A stretch of DNA of 64,000 nucleotides from the IMG/VR virus record IMGVR_UViG_3300045988_182866. One strand, 5' to 3'. Below the pieces are notes generated by a model that saw only the letters and a program-made list of their open reading frames with translations, had not been told where the DNA came from and ran no database searches. This document shows, piece after piece, positions 32,502 through 61,517 of this stretch. The stretch is from a virus. Both the position numbers and the translations under genes were made by a program. The first letter of the stretch is position 1. Each line of letters opens with the position of its first letter.

Positions 32502-32769
32502 TATCAGCCAACTTTTCTAAAATCTTTTTCTTATTTTTAACCTTTTGCTTATGCTTCTTTACAAATGAAAAACATTTTGAATAAAACTTACATTCATTCT
32601 TTGAACAATTACAATGAGGCCACCAATCATTTCTGCAAAATGGTAATTCTTTCCAAGAATTTTTATGAGCACCTCCATGTACTCCATCTCTTTTATCCCG
32701 GGACATTAGAAATCTCTCTATATTTCTTTTGCAAATATTGCAATACTTCTTTTGGATTAGGAACATCAA
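32482..32769 (-). CDS. Small Cys/His-rich ORF overlapping the junction of the gp47-like and gp46-like genes; tentative call.
   Basis: The 95-aa product has about 8 Cys and 4 His. It overlaps the 3' end of the gp47-like gene by 77 bp in another frame, so it may be spurious. Confidence 0.25.
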   Translation of the reverse strand: MMFLIQKKYCNICKRNIERFLMSRDKRDGVHGGAHKNSWKELPFCRNDWWPHCNCSKNECKFYSKCFSFVKKHKQKVKNKKKILEKLADNEVYNI

Positions 32770-33795: not shown

Positions 33796-34977
33796 TCATT
33801 CCGCAATAAAAACCTTATTTCCTACATCCCATATCCGGTCCCAACCGTTTGCACTCATATTTTCATATTCAGATAATTTAAGATCAAAATAATTCAAAAG
33901 ACGCGGTAATTTATGTTTTTGAAATTGAACTCGGCTTTTTCGTTGAAGAGAATTATCTTTAAAATAAAAGTAATTCGGGTCAGCATCATGAATCTCCTTA
34001 AATCCAATTTGTCGATAAAGCTGACCTTGGGACCATCGACGATCGGCATATGTAATTACACTGCCTGCATTATTTCTACGAAAATATTCAAACAACTTGG
34101 AAGCTCCTCCAATTACTGTAAAATTAGCAACTGTACAATAGCGAATCAGTTCATAATCATATTTCTTGTTAAACCTGGATTTATTAAAAGTCATTACAGC
34201 CACCATGCGATTCTTATAAAATAATCCCAGATTAATGGAAGAAGCGTAAGTTCCTTGAATATGATATTTTAAAATAAATGGCTTAACTTGCTGATAAGTC
34301 AATTCGCGAACTTTACATTTACGAGCATAGATCTTTCCGGAAGTAATTCCAAGAAGATGACGAATACGGGCCTTAACAATCTGCGGCTTCAATTCCCATT
34401 CATCTTCGAATACATGAATTAACCGTACTCCTTTTTCTTCACACTTATTTGTTTCAGTCAAATGGTACCGTTTAGTAAATCCATTTCGTTCACAATGTCC
34501 TGAAAGGGAATCAAACTCAAAAGCAATCTTCTTATCTGGAATATGAATAGCAATAGTATAAGGAGCTGCTAACTCTTTATCATTCTCAATAATCCGGCCA
34601 TTATAAACACTTTTAATATAATTTATAAAATTATTATAAGACTCAGGGTTAGATACCGGCTCAACAATAGGAGCTGGTTCTTTTTTAGAAGACGTGGAAA
34701 CTTTTTTAATTTTTTCCTTCTTTTGCTTTGGTTCTTTTGGAGCTTTGGACACTTTAGGCTCTGTATTTTTCCTTAATGCTTCAATAGCACATTGCCTGCA
34801 TCCATACTTGGAACGTATAAAATGCTGGGTTAAACAAAAGAAAGATCCATGATCCTTGCAAATAATTTCAACCGGTTTCCTGTTACTTTGATAATCAACT
34901 TTAGAGTAATCAAATTGATCTCCAAATTTTTCAAGGCAGAATTTAATAAAAGCTTCCTTACGTTGTTCTTTTTTCAT
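33796..34977 (-). CDS. Homing-endonuclease-like protein. One N-terminal zinc-ribbon module is followed by a DUF559/Vsr-like segment and a C-terminal domain of unknown family.
   Basis: The N-terminal module FDYSKVDY...IICKDHGSF...YGCRQC is shared with the paralogs at 36864..37547 and 60588..61517. The internal IAFEFDS..H segment is DUF559-like. Confidence 0.55.
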   Translation of the reverse strand: MKKEQRKEAFIKFCLEKFGDQFDYSKVDYQSNRKPVEIICKDHGSFFCLTQHFIRSKYGCRQCAIEALRKNTEPKVSKAPKEPKQKKEKIKKVSTSSKKEPAPIVEPVSNPESYNNFINYIKSVYNGRIIENDKELAAPYTIAIHIPDKKIAFEFDSLSGHCERNGFTKRYHLTETNKCEEKGVRLIHVFEDEWELKPQIVKARIRHLLGITSGKIYARKCKVRELTYQQVKPFILKYHIQGTYASSINLGLFYKNRMVAVMTFNKSRFNKKYDYELIRYCTVANFTVIGGASKLFEYFRRNNAGSVITYADRRWSQGQLYRQIGFKEIHDADPNYFYFKDNSLQRKSRVQFQKHKLPRLLNYFDLKLSEYENMSANGWDRIWDVGNKVFIAE

Positions 34978-34998
34978 AGAATGAATATAACTAATTTC

Positions 34999-35634
34999 TC
35001 AATTTTTAAAGGTGCGCAGATTACACACTTTATTTTTAGTATGTATCTTGGTAAACAACAAATTTTCTATAGATTTTCTATTATTTTTCCAGTCTCTTTC
35101 TTCGACATTTATTAGTAGAATATTTGCTTCTTTACAACGCCTTTCCTTTTCGGCATGACAGCCAGGCTGTCTTTCTTCTTTAAGTTTATGCCAGTGAGAT
35201 CCATTATATTCAATGCCAATTCTTAATTCGGGAAGAAATATGTCAAGCTCCATTCTTCCTATTTGAGTCTTATCATTTTCAAGAACTTCTCCCGAATAAA
35301 TTGACTTAATATATGCACAAACTTCTTTTTCTCCTCTAGATGTCTGTTTAGATAAGGCACATATTGGACAACCTTGTTGAAGATACCAATGACTAGACGG
35401 TATTTGTTGAAATACTCCGTGTACAGGACATATGATATTAACCTTAGAATGTGCGTTTACATAATTTACTAAAGAATAATCATATTTTTCTCCATGAACT
35501 TTTCTAGACCTCTTAATAAATTCATCAATTGTTAACTTTTCAAAACCAAAACATTTAGGACACCCTGAGCCATTTAAATGACTATTTGGTTTTTGCCAAA
35601 AAATACCATGTTTAGGACAAATAATTGATAGTTG
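34999..35634 (-). pseudogene. C-terminal fragment of the IS-disrupted homing-endonuclease-like gene (zinc-ribbon modules plus a DUF559/Vsr-like PD-(D/E)XK domain).
   Basis: The frame is open back to a stop at 35635-35637 with no start codon. It begins mid-module (IICPKHGIFWQ...). Its C-terminus ELDIFLPELRIGIEYNGSHWH parallels the intact paralog at 60588..61517. Confidence 0.7.
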
Positions 35635-36863
35635 CTAATTTCAATGAAATTCATTGAAAATTAACTTATTTTATCATGGGGACCATATACTCCCAAGCGA
35701 AGGATATTGATAGCAGCATTAATATCAGCATCAAATGTTCCTCCACAAGTCTTACAGTGATATACTTCACCTTGTCGACTCGACTTATCAACAGTATTAC
35801 AAACGTGGCATCGTTGAGATGTATAAGCAGGAGGAACTTTAATCAACTGGAAACCTTCCGTCTCAGAAAGTGACTCAAACTTATTCATTACTTTAATGTA
35901 ACTCCACCTTTGTAACTTGTTGTTAAACTTTTTAGAAAACTTTGATTTGTACTTAATGCATTTAAGATTCTCGATAATTACTTGCCCACAATCTTTATGT
36001 TCGTTATAAAATTTCTTAACGGCTAGATTGATTGCTTCATCACGCTCCCTAAGAGCTCGTTTGAAAGCTTTAGACCGTTGTTTCTTGCGAGAAATCTTTT
36101 CATAAATGTCCTCAAGTTCTTTACCATAAACCTTTCCATCACTACATGCGAGTAACTTTTTGTAACCACAATCAACTCCTGCTGATAATTTATTCTTTTT
36201 CTTTTCAGCTTCTTCTTTTTCCCAAAATAATTTCAACGAGAAATTATCAGACAGCATGAAACTATTTTTTAATTTCCAACCATTATTTTTGAACCTCAAA
36301 CTTACTCGATGATGATTGATTGGAAGTTTAAGTAGTATAGCTCGATGTTTTGTCTCTTGAAAATATGGTGAAAATATCTTGATGAAACAGTCAAACTCCT
36401 TAGTCTTATCCTCTTCAATATCCCATAGCATATAGTTAAGATTAATACTATGGGATTTAATTACTGACTCAGTAATCTTCTTAATTCTTTTTTTCTTAAG
36501 TAAAGTAACTTGCGAACGGTAAATCTGTGAGGCCTCTCGATAACATAACGCTCTCCATCTACTATTAGAAATATCATTTAATTGTGGGCAAAACTTACTT
36601 GAAAGATTTTGTTTCAATGGTAATTCACCATCATGAATTTTATGAAGATATAACTGAAGCAACTCTTTATAATCCTTAATAATCTTCCAGTACAAATCGA
36701 TTTTATCTCGATTTGCATACTTAAGTGTATGGGAAGATGAACGAATCACTTTGTTAACATTTTTATCTAGCAAGGTAAAATTAAAACTTAGATATTTTTT
36801 TAAGAAAAAATGAAAATTTTGATTATAAATTCATTTTATTTCTTTGAAACTAATGAATAATTA
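35626..36863 (-). mobile_element. IS200/IS605-family TnpB-only element (IS1341-like, no tnpA) inserted into a homing-endonuclease-like gene; boundaries approximate.
   Basis: The flanking sequences join into one continuous ORF (...HSQKKI | IICPKHG...). The element contains tnpB. A perfect 10-bp subterminal palindrome lies at 35639-35659, right after the tnpB stop. A left-end hairpin lies at 36807-36837. Confidence 0.75.
35661..36773 (-). CDS. tnpB: TnpB (IS605 OrfB-family RNA-guided nuclease) with its RuvC-like catalytic residues and zinc finger intact.
   Basis: RuvC-I reads GVDCG. RuvC-II reads VIIENLK. The zinc finger reads CHVCN...CKTCGG. RuvC-III reads DADINAAINI. Size is 370 aa. Confidence 0.85.
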   Translation of the reverse strand: MLDKNVNKVIRSSSHTLKYANRDKIDLYWKIIKDYKELLQLYLHKIHDGELPLKQNLSSKFCPQLNDISNSRWRALCYREASQIYRSQVTLLKKKRIKKITESVIKSHSINLNYMLWDIEEDKTKEFDCFIKIFSPYFQETKHRAILLKLPINHHRVSLRFKNNGWKLKNSFMLSDNFSLKLFWEKEEAEKKKNKLSAGVDCGYKKLLACSDGKVYGKELEDIYEKISRKKQRSKAFKRALRERDEAINLAVKKFYNEHKDCGQVIIENLKCIKYKSKFSKKFNNKLQRWSYIKVMNKFESLSETEGFQLIKVPPAYTSQRCHVCNTVDKSSRQGEVYHCKTCGGTFDADINAAINILRLGVYGPHDKIS

Positions 36864-37547
36864 TTATATTTTTTTCTGAGAATGCTCATAACTTACTTGA
36901 GAATAATCATAAAGAGTACCATGAACTTTTCTTGCTTTCTGAATAAAATCTTCAGTCGTTACTAACTCTTTATTTCCACATTTTGGACAACCACACCCAT
37001 TAAGATGGGAATTAGGTGTTTGCTGAAATATATGTCCACACTTTTTACATTTAATTTTTACCTTAACTTTATTACCCTGGTAATCCACTTCAGAATAATC
37101 AAATTTATCACCGTGTACTTTACTAGCTTTTTCAATAAATTCTTTAGTTGTAGATTTATTGTTATTAGAGCAAAAAGGACATCCAAAACCTTTCATATGG
37201 CTTTGTGCCTGCTGTTCAAATATATGCCCACATTTTTTACATTTAATTTTTACTTTAAGCTTATTGCCTTGATAATCTACTTCAGAATAATCAAATTTAT
37301 TGCCATGAACTTTTTGGGACTTTTCAATAAATTCTTTAGTTGTTAGCTTCTTAACACCAGCACATTCTAAACATCCGCATCCCTGGACATGGCTATAAGC
37401 TTTTTGCTGAAAAGAACCGTGAATAGGACATATTATTGTTATGACATTATGAGCTCCTGTATAAAAAGTCTCAGAATAATCATATTTGTTTCCATGAACC
37501 TCTGTACATTCTTTAATAAATTGCTCATTTGATTTTAATTTTGCCAT
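36864..37547 (-). pseudogene. N-terminal fragment of the IS-disrupted homing-endonuclease-like gene (3.5 tandem zinc-ribbon modules).
   Basis: The module pattern HGxK(Y/F)DYSxVxY...K(V/I)xIxCxxHGxFxQ...H(L/M)xGxGCPxC recurs. The ORF ends mid-module at the IS insertion point. Confidence 0.7.
36960..37343. repeat. Tandem direct repeat, 2 x 192 bp, encoding duplicated zinc-ribbon modules.
   Basis: Residues 69-132 and 133-196 of the ORF are near-identical (TTKEFIEK(S/A)(Q/S)KVHG(N/D)KFDYSEVDYQGNK(L/V)KVKIKCKKCGHIF...). Confidence 0.7.
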
Positions 37548-37588
37548 TTATTTTCATTTCGGAAACTCCTGAAAAAATTAAGGTGAAA

Positions 37589-38149
37589 TTAATCTTCTGA
37601 ATCTTCTTCCGGTCTTACATAAATTGGAGCGTCTGCGCATTGAATAAGTTCCGGATATTTTACTTCCCTATATTTTTTAACTTTTTCAGCGTGCTTCTTT
37701 TCATTTTTTATGATTGCACAGAAGGACCAGTAACAGATTTGCGTCCAAAAACTGAAAGCCTTAGACCCATAATTCACACTCCATTTCTTCCCACGCAGTG
37801 CGGTCATACATTTAATGAGAGCACTTGAAATCATTTCATCTTTATAAGAATAACGGCTAAAGCTCGAAGACCTTGCTAAACCTTGCGCAATCTTAAGGAA
37901 ACATTCCGCGATGTAATTCATATTCGGTTTATCGCTGTCCTCAACTTCATAAAACCTTTTAATTGCCGCGTCAAATTTAGCCGAATCTACATAATAGTCC
38001 TCTTTTTTAGTCTTTCCTCGATTCTGAACAGTAATAAACGCCCTTTTCTTATTCGGATCATTCAGCATTTCACGCTTTTTATCCAAATCTTCAGGCGGAC
38101 GTGTTTTAGTAGAAGGCTGTACAAATTGTTCTTTATTAGCTTCAGTCAT
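37589..38149 (-). CDS. Putative late-transcription sigma factor, T4 gp55-like.
   Basis: Size is 186 aa. IAQGLARSSSFSRYSYKDEMI...FWTQICYWSF resembles the gp55 segment IAEGLSKRFNFSGYT...YITQACFNAF. It lies adjacent to the 46/47 homologs, as in T4. Confidence 0.5.
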   Translation of the reverse strand: MTEANKEQFVQPSTKTRPPEDLDKKREMLNDPNKKRAFITVQNRGKTKKEDYYVDSAKFDAAIKRFYEVEDSDKPNMNYIAECFLKIAQGLARSSSFSRYSYKDEMISSALIKCMTALRGKKWSVNYGSKAFSFWTQICYWSFCAIIKNEKKHAEKVKKYREVKYPELIQCADAPIYVRPEEDSED

Positions 38150-39675: not shown

Positions 39676-40437
39676 TATAATTCAATTATAACGTAAAATA
39701 TTCAAAATTGATCAAAAATTATTCAAATAATTTAATATTAATAACTTAAATTACACAATATTTATTTGATTTTAATATAATTTATTTAAATTTAATTAAT
39801 TATATCAAATATAATTGGTATACTGGTCTCGCGCGCGGGAGGAGAATACCAATTATATTTTAATTATATTCAATTATATTTTAATTATAATAAAATTATT
39901 TTGAAATTTATTTTCAAAATTTTAATTTTATTTTCAAATTTATTTTGAAATTTGAAACATACGAACTTATTAAGGGGTACGCGCGCGTACCCCACATAGC
40001 CCATTAGGGCAATATTCATAAGCGTGCAGCGCACGCTTTCTACTTTATATTTAATTAATTAAATATAAATAAATATTTATTTATATTTAAATTATAATAT
40101 AAAATATTAAAAATAATTTAAAATATTAAAAATTTTTTCTATGCGCGCCCGCGCCCGCACACACGCGCACACGAAATCACCGAGCGCTGTTTTGGAGGTT
40201 TAACCAAATAGATAATTGTCTAATCCGAATAAGATTTGAATAAGTACATTTATTATCAGGATCTCTTCGGTACTCTATGGATAATAAAAAACCAATCTGA
40301 CTTATAGAAATCAGATTGGTTTCGACAATTTATTTTTAAAATCTCCTGGAGAATTATTTTAAATTCTTTTACCCTCCAGGTAGTAAAGTACAAGCCTAAA
40401 AGTTTTTAAAATTTTCTAGATATTTTTTAGAATTAAA
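39676..40437. repeat. Long non-coding island of AT-rich perfect palindromes, direct iterons and three GC-rich CGCGCG-core elements; candidate replication origin or regulatory hub.
   Basis: No ORF is present. Perfect palindromes include ATAATTGGTAT...ATACCAATTAT, GGGGTACGCGCGCGTACCCC, AGCGTGC-AGC-GCACGCT, TATATTTAATTAATTAAATATA and AAATAAATATTTATTT. Direct repeats include AATTATATTTT and ATTTATTTTCAAA. Confidence 0.6.
40283..40322 (-). terminator. Rho-independent terminator for the minus-strand gene 40438..40836.
   Basis: The stem AAACCAATCTGA/TCAGATTGGTTT (12 bp) has a 10-nt loop. On the minus strand it is followed by TTTTTTATT. Confidence 0.6.
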
Positions 40438-40863: not shown

Positions 40864-41301
40864 ATGAAGCTAAAAAGACATAAGGATATTGCCTCATTAT
40901 TCATTAACAAGAAAAAAGTTGAAGAAGACTGCGAAGGAATGACAGCAGGTTCTGTTTTAGCTCCTTCAGCCCAGGCGACTGGAGGAAATATTACAAATAC
41001 CGATTCGTATGCCCCAGGAGACAATAGAATTCCTAAGTCTTTATTCAAAACGAGGGTTATTAAACGAAAATATAAAGAAGAAGATGCTGAAGAATATCCT
41101 GAAATTCCGGCTGATTTCTTTACTGATAAGGAATGGGAAAAAATTGAAGAAGAGGCTGAAAGCCGTGGATGCAGTCCTTATGAAGTAGCTTATCGAGAAT
41201 ATAAAGCCAGAGGAGGAATGGACCAGGACCGCAAAATGACGGATATTGAAGTTCAAAAAGCATTTGATGAATTAAAATCGCATTTGGCGGATTATAATTG
41301 A
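40864..41301 (+). CDS. Hypothetical protein (145 aa).
   Basis: ORF track. Confidence 0.45.
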   Translation: MKLKRHKDIASLFINKKKVEEDCEGMTAGSVLAPSAQATGGNITNTDSYAPGDNRIPKSLFKTRVIKRKYKEEDAEEYPEIPADFFTDKEWEKIEEEAESRGCSPYEVAYREYKARGGMDQDRKMTDIEVQKAFDELKSHLADYN

Positions 41302-41762
41302 TTCCAATGAATCAAGATTTAGGTCATTGGGTTACTTCGATAGACATCCCTGAAGAAATATTCGGGTTTGTCTATCGAATTACCAATTTGGAAAATAATA
41401 AAATGTACATCGGTAAAAAACTTTGTACATCGGTTAAAAAGCTTCCTCCATTAAAAGGTAAAACAAGAAAAAGACATAAAAAAGTAGAAACAGATTGGAA
41501 AACTTATACCGGGTCTTCTCCGGAATTAAATGAAGATATTAAAAAATTAGGCAAAGATAAATTTAAATTCGAGATTATAAAATTTTGTACCTGTAAATGG
41601 GAATTGAGTTATTTTGAAGCAAAGGCCCAATTTGAAGAAGATGTTTTATTCAAGCAAGATGAATATTACAATGGTATAATCAATTTAAGAATTGGCCGTT
41701 CGCCAAAAGAAAGTCTTGAAAAATTTAATTTATGCCAATCGAATTTAAAATCCGGAATTTAA
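41298..41762 (+). CDS. Stand-alone GIY-YIG nuclease-domain protein (154 aa).
   Basis: FVYRITNLENNKMYIGKK has the canonical GIY-X10-YIG spacing. It is followed by a basic stretch and conserved E/N residues. Confidence 0.5.
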   Translation: MIPMNQDLGHWVTSIDIPEEIFGFVYRITNLENNKMYIGKKLCTSVKKLPPLKGKTRKRHKKVETDWKTYTGSSPELNEDIKKLGKDKFKFEIIKFCTCKWELSYFEAKAQFEEDVLFKQDEYYNGIINLRIGRSPKESLEKFNLCQSNLKSGI

Positions 41763-42656: not shown

Positions 42657-44597
42657 ATGCAAGAATTTACAAAAATTTTACAAAATATTGAGCTAATTCA
42701 GGAAGCTCAAAAAAGAAAAGATCCTGTTCTTAATGTAGTAACATTATTCAGTGGAATGGGAGCTCCGGAAATTGCCCTTGATAAATTGGGAGTCAAATAC
42801 AGGATTGTTCTGGCATCTGATATTGATCCAGAGGCTGAAGCAGTTTATAAGCAACTTCATGGTAAAAAACTTGCTAAAGGAAATGATTCATTTATTCCGA
42901 ATGTTTATGATGTTTTAGACCAGGTTGAACCTTCAAAGCTTAGCGCAGATGTTTTAATTGCAGGATTTTCTTGCCAGGCTTTTTCTTTATCTGGTAAACA
43001 ATATGGCATTTATTCTCGTCAAGTAAAACCTGAAGGATCCAATAAAAAATTTGTCGTCAATATTAAAAGGCATTTAACTGATATTAATGGAGATACTGCA
43101 ATCACTGTTAATAATGATGAATCTGATCCTTTACCTGAAGGACTTCCCGAAGGAACTAAAGTAACTATTTCTCCAGATTCTGACGGTAAGCTGGCATTTC
43201 AAACATTAAAGATTGCCCAAACATTAAAGCCAAAAGTTATTATTCTTGAAAATGTTTCTACTTTTGGCCAGGCTGATATTGAAGATGAAGATGAAGTTCC
43301 TTCTGAATTTATTACAGAAGAAAAAGAAATTAAAGTAATTCAATCCAGACTGGGACAATCTGGAAAAGTAGACATATCTGAAGGAGGTTATTTGAGACTC
43401 CTTGGAAAGATTTTCAATACTATTGGATATAGTTTTTATCCAATGTACCTTGATCCGACTTCTTATACTAATTCCGTAATTCGTCGTCCACGAATTTATA
43501 TCGTTGGTATTCGAAATGATATTGAAGCAGGAATTAATCCAAATAAATTAGAAGCTTTTGATGATAAGATGGCAACTAATTTTGGATTGAACACCACTAA
43601 ATCCGAAAAGGATTATCAAAAGCTTTTGGACAAAACTTTGAACTACATTATGAGTTCAAAGTATTCTCATGGCTATATGTCCAAAAATCCTCGAGAACTT
43701 GTTAAAGGTTTAGTCTCTAAATTTGGCATTAATAGATTTGCAGAAGCTACTGACTATATCTTTAATAAGCTTGTTAAAAATGGAAGTGTTGATCCCAGAA
43801 ACCTTCAATTAAATCAATTTCAGTATGATTCTAATGTTATTGATAAAGAATTTAATGATCCTCAGGTTATTAAATTCTTCAAGAAAATCAGAAGCGAACA
43901 GCAACCTGTAATTTTGGATGTATCTGAAAAAAGCGATACTGTTGATTATCTTTCTACTGTTTTAGCGGAAGGTATTTCTGGTTATTTTGAAGAATATAGC
44001 GGTAAATTTACTATTGATAATCCGCAAGGTGAATTAAATTTAGACTTTGGAACTAAACCCGCAAAACCAAAGGTTAAGAAAGAAAAACCATTGGTTCAGG
44101 GTGAATTGGATCTTGACTATGGGGAAGATCCTTTGGGACAAGTAGTTCAAGAAGCTTTAGGAAAATATAATAATCAAAAAGTTGATGAAATTGCTATTAA
44201 GAAATTTAAAGAAATCATTGCTAAGAAGTTATTGACCCAATTTCTTTTAAATTCTTATAATAAACGTAATTTAAGTTATATTCCTACAATTCTCAAGAAT
44301 TCATCTATTCCTATGAAAGTCGGAGGAGTTGGCAATGCAAACTACTTTATTCTTCGTAATAAATCCGGACAGTTTAGCTGGGGATATATTCATCCGGCAA
44401 TTTTGATGAAGTTGATGGGAATGTATTATAATTCAAGTTCCGGAGATGATTCAATTTATCAAAGTATAGCAAAAACAAAACTTACAAATGGCCGTCCGAT
44501 TTCAGTTAATGGAATTATTCGACGAATTGGTAATTCAATGAGTGTAACAGTTCTTGAAAAATTATTCAAATCGCTAATTTCAATGAAAGCCCTATGA
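42657..44597 (+). CDS. DNA (cytosine-5)-methyltransferase with an unusually long variable (target-recognition) region (646 aa).
   Basis: Motif I reads LFSGMGAPE. Motif IV reads GFSCQAFSLSGK, the catalytic Cys in an SCQ context. Motif VI reads ILENV. Motif VIII reads RRPRIYIVG. Motif X reads RIGNSMSVTV. About 330 aa separate motifs VIII and IX. Confidence 0.85.
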   Translation: MQEFTKILQNIELIQEAQKRKDPVLNVVTLFSGMGAPEIALDKLGVKYRIVLASDIDPEAEAVYKQLHGKKLAKGNDSFIPNVYDVLDQVEPSKLSADVLIAGFSCQAFSLSGKQYGIYSRQVKPEGSNKKFVVNIKRHLTDINGDTAITVNNDESDPLPEGLPEGTKVTISPDSDGKLAFQTLKIAQTLKPKVIILENVSTFGQADIEDEDEVPSEFITEEKEIKVIQSRLGQSGKVDISEGGYLRLLGKIFNTIGYSFYPMYLDPTSYTNSVIRRPRIYIVGIRNDIEAGINPNKLEAFDDKMATNFGLNTTKSEKDYQKLLDKTLNYIMSSKYSHGYMSKNPRELVKGLVSKFGINRFAEATDYIFNKLVKNGSVDPRNLQLNQFQYDSNVIDKEFNDPQVIKFFKKIRSEQQPVILDVSEKSDTVDYLSTVLAEGISGYFEEYSGKFTIDNPQGELNLDFGTKPAKPKVKKEKPLVQGELDLDYGEDPLGQVVQEALGKYNNQKVDEIAIKKFKEIIAKKLLTQFLLNSYNKRNLSYIPTILKNSSIPMKVGGVGNANYFILRNKSGQFSWGYIHPAILMKLMGMYYNSSSGDDSIYQSIAKTKLTNGRPISVNGIIRRIGNSMSVTVLEKLFKSLISMKAL

Positions 44598-60587: not shown

Positions 60588-61517
60588 TTGTCTATGATAA
60601 AAAGACAAAGAAGATTTTTAAACACTGAAATTTTTATAGAATTAGCAAAACAAATTCATGGAAGCAAATATGATTATTCAAAAGTCAGCTATAAAAATGC
60701 TAATACAAATGTTTTAATAATTTGTCCTATTCATGGTTTGTTCAGTCAAAATCCAAGATCTCACCTAAAAGGGTTTGGATGTGCAAAATGTTCAAATCGA
60801 ACAGCTAAGACTACTGAAGATTTTATCAAAGAATCAAAGCAGGTTCATGGAGACAAATATGATTATTCAGAAACAGTTTACGTCAATAATCACACAAATG
60901 TAAAAATCTTTTGCAAAAAAGATAAAATATTCTTTATACAAAATCCTAGAGTTCATCTTCAAGGAACGGGATGTCCCAAGTGTGCAAGAAATCAAAAGTT
61001 GACAACTAAGGGATTTATAGAAAGAGCTATAGCTATTCATGGTAACAAATATGATTATTCTTCAGTAGTTTATCAATCACATGCCAAAAAGATTATTATA
61101 ATTTGTCCTATCCATGGGCCTTTCGAGCAAAGAGCAAATGGTCATTTGAACGGCAAAGGCTGTTATAAATGTGCAAAGAGTTATAAGCGTTCAAGGGGAG
61201 AGATTGAACTTTGTAAATTTATTAAATCAATTTATTCCGGTCAAGTTTTGGAGAATGACAGAACAGTTATTAAGCCAAAAGAACTAGACATTTATCTTCC
61301 TGAATTAAAGTTGGCTCTTGAATATAATGGCGAATATTGGCATGATGAAACTAAGAAACGAAAACCGGGTTATCATAAAGAAAAGCAAAAAGCTTGTGAA
61401 AAGAAAGGCATTAAATTAATTGAGGTTTGGGATTCAGAATGGCATGCAGATAAAGATAGATTTAAAAATCTTATTCAAGAAGTAATAAATTCTATTCAAT
61501 CACCTTTAAAAATTTAG
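60588..61517 (+). CDS. Intact homing-endonuclease-like protein with three tandem zinc-ribbon modules plus a DUF559/Vsr-like PD-(D/E)XK endonuclease domain.
   Basis: Three modules are present: HGSKYDYSKVSY...IICPIHGLF..HLKGFGCAKC, HGDKYDYSETVY...HLQGTGCPKC and HGNKYDYSSVVY...IICPIHGPF..HLNGKGCYKC. The C-terminus carries ELDIYLPELKLALEYNGEYWH...IEVWDSEW. Confidence 0.7.
   Translation: MSMIKRQRRFLNTEIFIELAKQIHGSKYDYSKVSYKNANTNVLIICPIHGLFSQNPRSHLKGFGCAKCSNRTAKTTEDFIKESKQVHGDKYDYSETVYVNNHTNVKIFCKKDKIFFIQNPRVHLQGTGCPKCARNQKLTTKGFIERAIAIHGNKYDYSSVVYQSHAKKIIIICPIHGPFEQRANGHLNGKGCYKCAKSYKRSRGEIELCKFIKSIYSGQVLENDRTVIKPKELDIYLPELKLALEYNGEYWHDETKKRKPGYHKEKQKACEKKGIKLIEVWDSEWHADKDRFKNLIQEVINSIQSPLKI

What the first reader, a model, noticed from the sequence alone, without database searches (positions are those of the whole stretch)
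34999..37547. Apparently active TnpB-only IS605-family element inserted in frame-preserving fashion into a homing-endonuclease-like gene of a T4-like phage
The minus-strand ORF 36864..37547 ends mid-module (...VSYEHSQKKI*). The open frame 35634..34999 resumes at exactly the complementary module position (IICPKHGIFWQ...) and carries the C-terminal DUF559-like domain. The flanks reconstitute one gene: KKI|IICP, compare KKIIIICPIHG in the intact paralog at 60588. The 1.2-kb insert carries a 370-aa TnpB with all RuvC catalytic residues and its zinc finger. A perfect 10-bp subterminal palindrome (TTTCAATGAA-a-TTCATTGAAA, 35639-35659) immediately follows the TnpB stop, as at IS200/605 right ends. 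A left-end hairpin lies at 36807-36837. No TnpA is present. TnpB is established as an RNA-guided nuclease whose guide RNA is encoded at the right end and reads into flanking DNA. Here that flank is the homing-endonuclease-like gene itself. The perfect ORF reconstitution argues that the insertion is recent. A programmable nuclease riding inside a homing-endonuclease family in a lytic phage fits selfish retention or homing-like spread.
Basis: partly seen in the sequence, partly recalled or inferred. Interest (0 to 1): 0.75.

Follow-up and report, generated by a model that had tools for sequence, protein, structure and literature searches.

The report
TnpB-only transposon splitting a phage endonuclease gene
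A 1.2-kb selfish DNA element that carries only an RNA-guided nuclease (TnpB) and its guide RNA has split a homing-endonuclease-like gene in a T4-like gut phage. Sister phages keep the gene intact, so the insertion is real and recently mobile, but it is a new member of a known transposon family (IS607 rather than IS605).

Summary
Window 36865..35628 (minus strand, 1238 bp) is a discrete insert. A 97-99% identical phage contig (L005) has the uninterrupted 436-aa gene with the junction ...KKISIICP..., so the two ORF fragments were once one gene.

The insert encodes a 370-aa TnpB with an invariant D-E-D RuvC triad and a CxxC..CxxC zinc finger. Its 3' end carries a guide-RNA scaffold supported by covariation (94% of cells paired, 13 of 14 pairs with compensatory changes). 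A 99.4% identical copy sits at another site in related contigs. A second element type is polymorphic 3 kb away, and the window holds that empty site at 32551/32550.

The interpretation needs correcting. Full-length relatives of this TnpB lie next to serine-recombinase TnpA (IS607 type), never next to Y1 TnpA. The last 3 nt of the left flank equal the last 3 nt of the right end in 10 of 11 sites. The "IS200/605-like" right-end palindrome is the terminal stem of the guide RNA. The homing-endonuclease target looks incidental, and the insertion is a widespread polymorphism rather than a one-off.

No transposase gene is in the window. The most likely working: movement to new sites by a TnpA supplied in trans, and retention or spread by TnpB-guided cutting of empty alleles followed by recombinational repair. 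That step is inferred, not shown.

The parts
36864..37547 (-). N-terminal fragment (227 codons plus stop) of the interrupted homing-endonuclease-like gene. The stop T|AA is created at the insertion junction.
   Evidence: Pfam DUF4379 treble-clef repeats. PHROG 559/681 'HNH endonuclease / endonuclease'. The exact protein is on 16 contigs.
36866..36870 (-). Left flank 5-mer AATAT. This is the presumed target-adjacent motif (TAM). Its last 2-3 nt (TAT) are the probable crossover core, repeated at the right end.
   Evidence: Empty site in L005. Flank 5-mers at other sites are AATAT, AACAT and AGCAT.
35628..36865 (-). The inserted element: 1238 bp, no terminal inverted repeats, no clear target duplication (3-nt TAT ambiguity).
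   Evidence: It is 99.4% identical to L001:5912-7146 at a different site. Its boundaries come from the empty allele L005.
36774..36865 (-). Left end (92 nt). It includes the imperfect hairpin 36807..36837. The first 2-4 nt vary between copies.
   Evidence: Alignment A1. Junction list. Allele alignment A7.
35661..36773 (-). tnpB, 370 aa from TTG 36773. The true start is probably GTG at 36752, which gives MIRSSSHTLKY as in the homologs.
   Evidence: Pfam. PHROG 506 'transposase'. Alignment A3 with invariant D201/E268/D350 and CxxC..CxxC. PDB hits to Cas12f, TnpB and CasPhi.
35628..35698 (-). 3' module of the guide (omega) RNA scaffold. Stem A is 35697-35692 paired with 35680-35675. Stem B spans 35665-35634 and contains the tnpB stop codon and the 10-bp palindrome. 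The tail AACTAT is 35633-35628.
   Evidence: Covariance model R1 scores 85.4 bits, E 3e-14, and this is the only hit in the window. Covariation. Minimum-free-energy folds.
35737..35859 (-). Probable upstream part of the guide-RNA scaffold inside the tnpB ORF: the hairpin GGAAGGTTTCC (35859-35849) and the long-range stem GTTCCTCC (35837-35830) with GGAGGAAC (35744-35737).
   Evidence: Minimum-free-energy fold. Compensatory changes seen by eye in an 11-sequence alignment. Not counted formally.
35608..35627 (-). Guide segment and target: CAATTATTTGTCCTAAACAT, the first 20 nt of the right flank. It is unique in the window and identical in the empty allele, where it lies next to AATAT.
34999..35627 (-). 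C-terminal fragment of the interrupted gene. It is open in frame and holds one more repeat module plus the nuclease-like C-terminal domain.
   Evidence: PHROG 559/681/3339. It has 1 amino-acid difference from P0121.
32541..32560 (-). Empty site for a second element type (71% identical): GTAAAGAAGCAT|AAGCAAAAGG, junction at 32551/32550. It is intergenic, between the gp47-like and gp46-like genes.
   Evidence: The site is occupied in the 99% identical contig L086.

Best explanation
The insert is a non-autonomous, TnpB-only member of a phage-borne clade of IS607-family insertion sequences. It consists of a 92-nt left end, a catalytically intact tnpB gene, and a guide (omega) RNA scaffold that overlaps the last ~70-230 nt of the ORF and ends at ...AACTAT.

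**Shown**
- It entered the endonuclease-like gene exactly after AATAT, without a target duplication.
- Occupied and empty alleles coexist in ~98% identical phages of ~200 kb.
- A near-identical copy sits at another site.

**Inferred**
- Movement to new sites needs a serine-recombinase TnpA supplied in trans, from another copy in the phage genome, a co-infecting phage or the host. It would work through a circular intermediate that crosses over in the short core (Y)AT shared by the target and the right end.
- TnpB loaded with the RNA uses the ~16-20 nt that follow the right end (CAATTATTTGTCC...) as its guide. It should therefore cut any genome carrying the empty site AATAT+CAATTATTTGTCC. It should spare the occupied site, where ACTAT precedes the same sequence.
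- In a T4-like phage that encodes UvsX and gp46/47, such a break would be repaired from an occupied genome. The element would then be retained after excision and copied into co-infecting empty genomes.
- Hitting a homing-endonuclease-like gene is most likely chance insertion into a dispensable gene.
For: - **Boundaries and empty site:**
- **Second copy elsewhere:**
- **Second polymorphic site 3 kb away:**
- **TnpB domains and catalytic residues:**
- **Guide-RNA covariation:** stem A is 98.4% paired, 5 of 6 pairs have double changes, and 0 of 500 shuffles reach the observed paired percentage, compensated-cell count or covariation score. The whole module over 45 distinct sequences is 94.1% paired, 13 of 14 pairs have double changes, and slid controls give 36-52%. 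The model hits only the 3' end of tnpB, in 59 matches across 96 loci, and once in the window.
- **IS607 affinity:** a Resolvase-type TnpA abuts or overlaps tnpB in about a dozen viral relatives and in L100 and L103. Full-length similarity is found only with TnpA_S-linked TnpBs.
- **Junction rule:** flank and right end share their last 3 nt in 10 of 11 sites. This matches the core-dinucleotide behaviour published for IS607 (bioRxiv 10.1101/2023.11.20.567912).
- **Autonomous and TnpA-less copies on one contig:** L039 (TnpA_S plus TnpB) and L033 (TnpB 94% identical, no TnpA) lie on one 105-kb viral contig.
- **Recombination genes in the window:** UvsX-like and SbcD/gp47-like matches. The gp46-like label rests on the syntenic contig's SMC_N/AAA_23 call.
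- **Hints of recombinational copying:** the L178 allele has a left junction carrying the target's own bases CAATTATT. The L179 allele has lost the TAM and half of the left end but keeps tnpB and is on at least 9 contigs.
Against: - No TnpA of either kind is in the 64-kb window, and none was shown on this phage lineage. Trans-mobilisation is therefore an assumption.
- Serine recombinases normally use a 2-nt core, yet 3 nt match here. One site (L092) breaks the rule.
- The element has subterminal hairpins, which published IS607 elements are said to lack.
- No RNA data, cleavage data or TAM assay exist.
- SNP patterns around the site show a mosaic and no clear co-conversion tract.
- Alignment A6 was fitted to the model, so its pair counts lean towards the structure.
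Confidence: 0.7

Rival explanations
1. It is an IS200/IS605-family (Y1 type, IS1341-like) TnpB-only element. It would move as single-stranded DNA: a host or phage HUH TnpA recognises the subterminal hairpins and inserts 3' of a penta-nucleotide. This is what the first reader proposed.
For: - Hairpins lie near both ends on the same strand.
- Insertion is exactly 3' of a conserved A-R-Y-A-T motif, without duplication.
- Pfam gives a sub-threshold OrfB_IS605 hit.
Against: - No Y1 TnpA lies adjacent to any full-length relative. The single Y1 gene among 93 sequences (L067) is 1.9 kb away on the other strand.
- Y1-linked TnpBs match only the C-terminal 75-200 residues, at 57-70 bits.
- The right-end hairpin covaries as an RNA stem.
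- The right-end tail and guide-RNA module are shared with TnpA_S-bearing elements.
Confidence: 0.15
2. The TnpB is no longer a transposon gene. It has been taken over by the phage, for example as an RNA-guided weapon against competing phages or as a regulator. The left and right ends would be relics.
For: - The clade is almost confined to viral contigs. There are at least 565 relatives in IMG/VR, against about 6 loci with 39% identity or more in 185,579 species genomes, all on MAG contigs.
- About 85% of the viral copies lack an adjacent TnpA.
- The allele with a deleted left end (L179) keeps an intact tnpB on at least 9 contigs.
Against: - The catalytic triad is intact.
- Copies that are 99.4% identical sit at different sites, with sharply conserved ends.
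- Two presence/absence polymorphisms occur among 99% identical genomes.
- The guide is simply whatever flanks the right end, as in active elements.
Confidence: 0.1
3. It is an IStron-like element (transposon plus self-splicing group I intron) that splices out of the mRNA and restores the endonuclease-like protein. That would explain the 'frame-preserving' flanks.
For: - The flanks join in frame.
- IStrons with TnpB exist in both the IS605 and IS607 families.
Against: - Rfam finds nothing, even at E <= 1, in 34500-38000 or anywhere in the window.
- Only 92 nt lie upstream of tnpB, too few for a group I core.
- Any exact insertion joins in frame once removed, so the in-frame join is not evidence of splicing.
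Confidence: 0.02

Closest known systems
IS607-family insertion sequences (serine-recombinase TnpA_S plus TnpB), including TnpA-less copies and the C. botulinum elements studied by Zedaveinyte et al. (bioRxiv 10.1101/2023.11.20.567912)
   Same: - The TnpB aligns over its full length with TnpA_S-linked TnpBs.
- The guide RNA sits at the right end and the guide is the right flank.
- There are no inverted repeats and no target duplication.
- The same short core is found at the left junction and at the right end.
- The target motif equals the TAM.
- The family is known to occur in viruses.
   Different: - This copy has no TnpA.
- The core is (Y)AT rather than GG, with an apparent 3-nt match.
- Subterminal hairpins are present.
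- The clade is almost restricted to phage contigs.
- No intron is present.
[quoted passage not shown]
   Same: - Same protein fold family (RuvC plus zinc ribbon).
- Same logic of guide RNA and TAM.
- Same expected role in re-cutting the empty donor site.
   Different: - Only the C-terminal third of the protein is alignable to Y1-linked relatives.
- No Y1 TnpA is associated.
- Transposition chemistry is probably double-stranded and serine-recombinase based.
Free-standing homing endonuclease genes of T4-like phages (Seg and Mob proteins; GIY-YIG and HNH families)
   Same: - Selfish nuclease genes that are polymorphic between closely related T4-like phages.
- They are expected to spread in mixed infections by break repair using phage recombination enzymes.
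   Different: - Target recognition would be by RNA guide plus TAM, not by protein.
- The element has defined transposon ends and occurs at several unrelated sites.
CasPhi (Cas12j) of huge phages
   Same: A phage-encoded compact RuvC nuclease of the TnpB/Cas12 lineage. The sequence match covers the C-terminal RuvC/zinc region (E 2e-9).
   Different: - No CRISPR array is present.
- The protein is half the size.
- The guide is fixed by the insertion site.

Membership tests
TnpB / OMEGA RNA-guided nucleases | Split RuvC domain with a D-E-D triad, plus a zinc-ribbon (TNB) insertion | tested here: met
   - Pfam PF07282 scores 59.7 bits against a cut-off of 26.3.
- D201, E268, D350, C322, C325, C340 and C343 are invariant in A3.
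- PDB matches to Cas12f and TnpB.
TnpB / OMEGA RNA-guided nucleases | A structured guide-RNA scaffold that overlaps the 3' end of the ORF and ends at the transposon right end | tested here: met
   - Covariation counts.
- CM R1 hits only at the 3' ends of tnpB.
- No Rfam family matches, so this is by covariation, not by a curated model.
TnpB / OMEGA RNA-guided nucleases | RNA-guided, TAM-dependent DNA cleavage | not testable with these tools
   Only the predicted substrate is available: AATAT followed by CAATTATTTGTCCTAAACAT in the empty allele L005.
IS607 family | Serine-recombinase TnpA (N-terminal HTH plus Resolvase domain) encoded just upstream of tnpB | tested here: not met
   - Absent from this element and from the window.
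- Present in about a dozen viral relatives and in L100 and L103.
- Resolvase PF00239 is confirmed for L039 and L098.
- The element can therefore only be a non-autonomous derivative.
IS607 family | TnpB clusters with TnpA_S-linked TnpBs rather than Y1-linked ones | tested here: met
   - TnpA_S-linked: full-length alignments of 112-231 bits for 20 of the 22 TnpA_S-linked loci compared (two score 70-102 bits).
- Y1-linked: C-terminal alignments only, 57-70 bits.
- No tree was built.
IS607 family | No terminal inverted repeats and no target-site duplication; the same core nucleotides at the left junction and the right end | tested here: met
   - Two empty/occupied pairs.
- The last 3 nt match in 10 of 11 sites.
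- Caveat: 3 nt match rather than the canonical 2, and there is one exception.
IS607 family | Excision as a double-stranded circle by TnpA_S | not testable with these tools
   Needs PCR for the junction ...AGCAACTAT|AATAATTATTC... or long-read data.
IS200/IS605 family (Y1 type) | HUH Y1 TnpA in the element or in close relatives | tested here: not met
   - One non-adjacent Y1 gene in 698 kb of related loci.
- Y1 genes lie only beside distant relatives.
IS200/IS605 family (Y1 type) | Subterminal imperfect palindromes at both ends, and insertion 3' of a fixed tetra- or penta-nucleotide | tested here: inconclusive
   - Hairpins exist at 36807-36837 and 35639-35659, and the flank motif is A-R-Y-A-T.
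- The right hairpin, however, is explained as an RNA stem.
- The flank motif fits IS607 equally well.
IStron (transposon plus group I intron) | Group I ribozyme core at the 5' part of the element | tested here: not met
   - No Rfam match at E <= 1 or at gathering threshold in the whole window.
- The left end is only 92 nt.
Homing-endonuclease-like phage genes (target gene) | Membership of phage endonuclease families, and a recognisable nuclease domain | tested here: inconclusive
   - PHROG 559 'HNH endonuclease', 681 and 3339 'homing endonuclease' match with E 1e-40 to 1e-72.
- Pfam finds only DUF4379 and DUF723 repeats in the fragments.
- DUF559 (PF04480) appears only in some homologs.
- No activity is known.

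The most novel reading that the evidence does not exclude
In lytic T4-like gut phages, TnpA-less IS607-type elements may persist and spread mainly as RNA-guided homing endonuclease genes. TnpB would cut empty alleles in co-infecting genomes, and the phage's own UvsX/gp46/gp47 recombination machinery would copy the element in. This is 'non-restorative transposon homing', which so far has only been theorised for phages (PMC13565253).

Three observations would be footprints of such a process:
- The clade is nearly confined to phages.
- The L178 junction retains target bases.
- The L179 allele has lost its left end but keeps an intact tnpB and still circulates.
Probability: 0.35. Interest if true: 0.7.

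Novelty: new member of a known kind. Interest (0 to 1): 0.5.

Why it matters
**A natural test system.** The finding gives near-identical ~200-kb phage genomes with empty and occupied alleles at two sites, plus two derived junction alleles. These could be used to test whether TnpB works as an RNA-guided homing endonuclease between co-infecting viruses, independently of a transposase.

**A phage-borne TnpB clade.** The work also points to a large, almost phage-restricted clade of compact TnpBs (~360-400 aa). Their guide-RNA 3' module is now defined by covariation, and the likely TAM is A-R-Y-A-T. That may interest people mining small editors.

**For annotation.** TnpB-only inserts in phages should not be filed under IS605 by default.

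Tried and rejected
- **Near-identity DNA search.** A search of 34800-37700 against 50,697 GenBank phages found nothing. The lineage is known only from metagenomes.
- **Rfam.** The region at E <= 1 and the whole window at gathering threshold gave no group I intron or any other family. No tRNAs were found.
- **Extra copies in the window.** None were found by blastn or tblastn or by CM.
- **Off-target matches of the 20-nt guide in the window.** None with 3 or fewer mismatches. Targeting of the paralogous repeat modules is therefore not supported.
- **Promoter and terminator scan of 35400-37700.** Not above shuffled expectation.
- **Co-conversion tract around the insertion.** Comparing window, L086 and L005 gave a mosaic SNP pattern, which is uninformative.
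- **Search for a TnpA_S on the same phage lineage.** There are 282 relatives in IMG/VR, but none on sequence overlapping this lineage.
- **Left-end boundaries in distant subfamilies (L013-L019, L023-L033).** Pairwise alignments were too ragged to use.
- **Alternative crossover core.** I considered that the variable first 2 nt of the left end are the real crossover core. I rejected this because they do not match the first 2 nt of the right flank at any site.
- **RNAalifold on raw MAFFT alignments.** It found only stem A. The structure was therefore set by hand and checked with shuffle and slide controls.
Full report
**1. Checking the observation**

The minus strand of the window carries three features in a row:
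- A 227-codon ORF (36864..37547) ending ...VSYEHSQKKI*.
- A 370-codon ORF (35661..36773).
- An open frame (35634..34999) that starts in mid-module with IICPKHGIFWQ.

The intact paralog at 60588..61517 has ...AKKIIIICPIHG... at the matching module position.

I built the hypothetical rejoined protein and searched the large protein collection. The best hit, P0121, is 436 aa long, 98% identical over the full length, and reads ...HSQKKISIICPKHG.... Its contig L005 has the same gene order as the window: SNF2 helicase, a 186-aa late sigma factor, this gene, a 393-aa paralog, gp47-like, gp46-like, DNA polymerase. The flanks are 97.0% and 98.7% identical to the window. The uninterrupted site reads CATTCTCAGAAAAAAATAT|CAATTATTTGTCC.

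The insert is therefore window 36865..35628 (1238 bp). Its position is ambiguous by 3 nt, because TAT ends both the left flank and the insert. A serine codon (T|CA) is split. The stop codon of the N-terminal fragment is made at the junction (ATA T|AA TAA).

**2. What the insert is**

*The protein.* It matches Pfam Cas12f1-like_TNB above threshold. It matches OrfB_IS605 and a Cas12 RuvC model below threshold. In an alignment of 30 homologs, D201, E268, D350 and the four zinc-finger cysteines are invariant. The best solved relatives by sequence are Cas12f, TnpB and CasPhi. Homologs start MIRxSxHTxKY, so the true start is probably the GTG at 36752 rather than the TTG at 36773.

*Mobility.* A 99.4% identical copy of the whole 1.24-kb segment lies in contigs L001, L002 and L006, between a macro-domain gene and an 89-aa gene. 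Copies of 71-74% identity lie at three further sites, in L003, L088 and L086. Contig L086 is from a human gut metagenome and is 99% identical to the window. It has the same insertion in the endonuclease-like gene. It also has a second, 71%-type element between the gp47-like and gp46-like genes. The window holds the empty version of that second site at 32551/32550, reading GTAAAGAAGCAT|AAGCAAAAGG. Two presence/absence polymorphisms within 3 kb of nearly identical genomes show recent activity.

*The guide RNA.* The last ~70 nt of the element are conserved far beyond what the protein requires. They fold into three parts:
- Stem A lies over the final codons of tnpB.
- An invariant tail AAC(Y)AU follows.

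On 21 hand-anchored sequences, stem A is 98.4% paired. Five of its 6 pairs show changes on both sides, 0 of 500 shuffles reach the observed paired percentage, compensated-cell count or covariation score, and slid controls give 37-64%. The minimum-free-energy hairpin closes exactly 6 nt before the right end in 23 of 27 relatives, although the sequences differ.

A covariance model built from 12 sequences finds one hit in the window, at 35628..35698 (85.4 bits). It gives 59 matches across 96 related loci, all at the 3' end of tnpB. On that alignment of 45 distinct rows, 94.1% of cells pair and 13 of 14 pairs have compensatory changes, against ~50% pairing when slid. This alignment was fitted to the model, so the independent one search carries more weight.

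Further upstream, a hairpin (GGAAGGTTTCC) and a long-range stem (GTTCCTCC/GGAGGAAC) show compensatory changes by eye. I did not count these formally. Rfam has no matching family.

**3. Which transposon family**

I looked for transposase genes in the window and in 93 related sequences (698 kb).
- Only one Y1 (HUH) TnpA turned up. It is 1.9 kb from the tnpB on the other strand.
- In contrast, a ~190-aa protein with a Resolvase domain abuts or overlaps the tnpB start in about a dozen viral relatives (L039, L048, L059, L058, L046/47, L068, L052, L016, L022, L085). It does the same in L100 and L103 from the genome collection.
- These TnpA_S-linked TnpBs align to the window protein over its full length at 112-231 bits. 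Y1-linked ones align only over the C-terminal RuvC/zinc region at 57-70 bits.
- The guide-RNA model scores 72-76 bits on the TnpA_S-bearing elements L039 and L048.

The junctions point the same way. The last three bases of the left flank equal the last three bases of the right end in 10 of 11 independent sites: TAT five times, CAT four times, GAT once, with one exception in L092. Published work on IS607 reports a circular double-stranded intermediate, a core dinucleotide present at both junctions, a target motif that equals the TAM, and neither inverted repeats nor target duplication.

I therefore file the element as a TnpA-less derivative within an IS607-family clade. Three reservations apply:
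- The match is 3 nt rather than 2.
- The element has hairpins near its ends.
- I built no tree.

The left-flank 5-mers are AATAT, AACAT, AGCAT and AGGAT, while the right end reads ACTAT, ACCAT or ACGAT. Position -4 (purine against C) is thus the only obvious way for TnpB to tell an empty site from its own right-end junction. This is inference.

**4. Where the transposase is**

None is in the window. tblastn with both TnpA types found nothing, and Pfam scans of 30 mid-size ORFs found neither Resolvase nor Y1_Tnp. The window is about a third of a ~200-kb genome, so a copy elsewhere cannot be excluded.

One 105-kb viral contig carries both an autonomous element (L039, TnpA_S plus TnpB) and a copy whose tnpB is 94% identical but lacks TnpA (L033). 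This shows that autonomous and TnpA-less copies can share one viral genome. IMG/VR holds at least 282 relatives of this TnpA_S, but I could not place any on this phage lineage.

**5. Host genome and ecology**

The window encodes T4-type core proteins: a DNA polymerase only 28-30% identical to those of T4-like cyanophages and rhizobiophages, a gp55-like late sigma factor, gp46/47-like proteins, a UvsX-like recombinase and a tail-sheath stabiliser (gp46-like from the syntenic contig). It is therefore a divergent T4-like myovirus. Its relatives come from human-gut and other metagenome assemblies of 200-205 kb.

The TnpB clade is abundant in viral contigs, with at least 565 relatives in IMG/VR and often several per contig. 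It is rare in cellular genomes. Among 185,579 species representatives, only about six loci reach 39% identity, and all are on MAG contigs. One of these is identical in length to an IMG/VR contig. Both scans rely on peptide patterns, so the contrast is approximate.

**6. The interrupted gene**

Both fragments and the two paralogs (33796..34977 and 60588..61517) match PHROG families annotated as HNH, homing or plain endonuclease. Pfam detects DUF4379 and DUF723 zinc-ribbon repeats. DUF559 is not detected in the window fragments, only in some homologs.

Other copies of the element sit in unrelated intergenic places. The 20-nt guide has no second match in the window. I therefore see no special relationship between the element and homing endonucleases.

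**7. Age and alleles**

The truncated 227-aa product is exactly present on 16 contigs and in nr as DAO62757.1. Its 90% cluster has 133 members, against 335 for the intact gene. Several occupied variants exist:
- Variants differing in the length of the poly-A run.
- The L178 allele, whose left junction is ATAT|CAATTATTCATTAG. The first left-end bases (AAT) are replaced by the target's own C, giving an 11-nt direct repeat TATCAATTATT around the element.
- The L179 allele, on at least 9 contigs. A 62-nt deletion removes the end of the N-terminal fragment, the TAM and half of the left end, while tnpB and the right end remain intact.

The L178 junction is what one would expect if a broken empty allele primed repair on an occupied allele through the 7-nt microhomology AATTATT. 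This is suggestive, not proof. SNPs around the site form a mosaic that neither supports nor refutes co-conversion.

**8. How it most likely works**

Shown:
- Exact insertion after A-R-Y-AT.
- An intact nuclease.
- A conserved, structured RNA that ends at the right end.
- A guide segment identical to the empty allele.
- Polymorphism among near-identical phages.

Inferred from published work on IS605 and IS607 TnpB (PMC10055086; bioRxiv 10.1101/2023.11.20.567912):
- TnpB plus this RNA cuts empty sites, and recombination restores or spreads the element.
- New sites require a TnpA_S supplied in trans.

A 2026 review lists homing between co-infecting phages only as a theoretical case (PMC13565253). 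TnpB-type insertion sequences in virulent T4-like Campylobacter phages were already noted in 2010 (PMC2853527).

**9. Verdict**

The finding is real and well defined. Its main parts belong to known kinds, so I rate it a new member of a known kind.

Interest is moderate at 0.5. The value lies in the natural allele series and the phage-restricted clade, which make RNA-guided homing in phages directly testable.

Noticed in passing
window 32541-32560 (junction 32551/32550, minus strand): This is the empty insertion site for a second TnpB element type (71% identical to the one studied). In the 99% identical contig L086 the same site is occupied: GAAGCAT|TTTGATT...AGCAACCAT|AAGCAAAAGG.
   Followed up: yes
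L178:4180-4200 and L179:4150-4215 (same site as window 36865): Two derived alleles of the insertion were found. L178 has target bases (C) in place of the first left-end bases, which gives an 11-nt direct repeat TATCAATTATT. L179 has a 62-nt deletion across the TAM and left end, with an 11-nt filler TGTAGGTCCCC, while tnpB stays intact. L179-type contigs number at least 9.
   Followed up: partly
window 36863-36865; L001:5910-5912; L088 and L086 left ends: The first 2-4 nt of the left end differ (AA / TG / TT / C) between copies that are otherwise up to 99.4% identical. No mechanism was found for this.
   Followed up: partly
L026, L034, L038 (about 90 nt before the tnpB stop): There is an in-frame TGA inside the conserved RuvC-III motif (GAT GCA GAT TGA AAT GC, i.e. 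D-A-D-*-N-A, where relatives have Y). This suggests these viral contigs read TGA as an amino acid (recoded phages).
   Followed up: no
L023, L025, L027, L033, L050, just upstream of tnpB: A small ORF ending ...MSKLITKLIIKELENK*, of ribbon-helix-helix type, replaces TnpA in front of tnpB. A 2026 preprint describes Arc repressors in IS605-family elements (bioRxiv 10.64898/2026.09.24.754181); I saw only its abstract.
   Followed up: no
L098:2740-2790: A second right-end-like sequence (TTTCATGATTTTTCATGATTTTTAGTAACGGT) lies ~215 nt upstream of the tnpB in this Bacilli-MAG contig. A TnpA_S gene sits 1.3 kb upstream on the opposite strand. These may be tandem or nested elements.
   Followed up: no
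window 41298-41762 (+): A 154-aa ORF carries a GIY-YIG-like N-terminus (FGFVYRITNLENNKMYIGKK). It matches several PHROG 'homing endonuclease' families. The window therefore holds at least two kinds of putative homing endonuclease genes besides the three DUF723/DUF4379 paralogs (33796-34977, the split gene, 60588-61517).
   Followed up: partly
window 39905-39938 (+): A 34-nt stretch is 82% identical to nt 70-103 of the element, the A/T-rich region just upstream of tnpB (blastn E 0.002). It may be chance or a shared promoter-like motif.
   Followed up: no
window 42657-44597 (+): By eye, a 646-aa ORF has C5-cytosine-methyltransferase-like motifs at its N-terminus (LFSGMGAPE ... GFSCQAFS ... ENV). 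This was not checked with any profile search.
   Followed up: no
window 35616-35617 versus L086:229-230: The occupied allele in L086 has a T-to-C change at position 11 of the 20-nt guide/target segment (caattatttgCcctaaac). Guides therefore differ between otherwise identical insertions.
   Followed up: no
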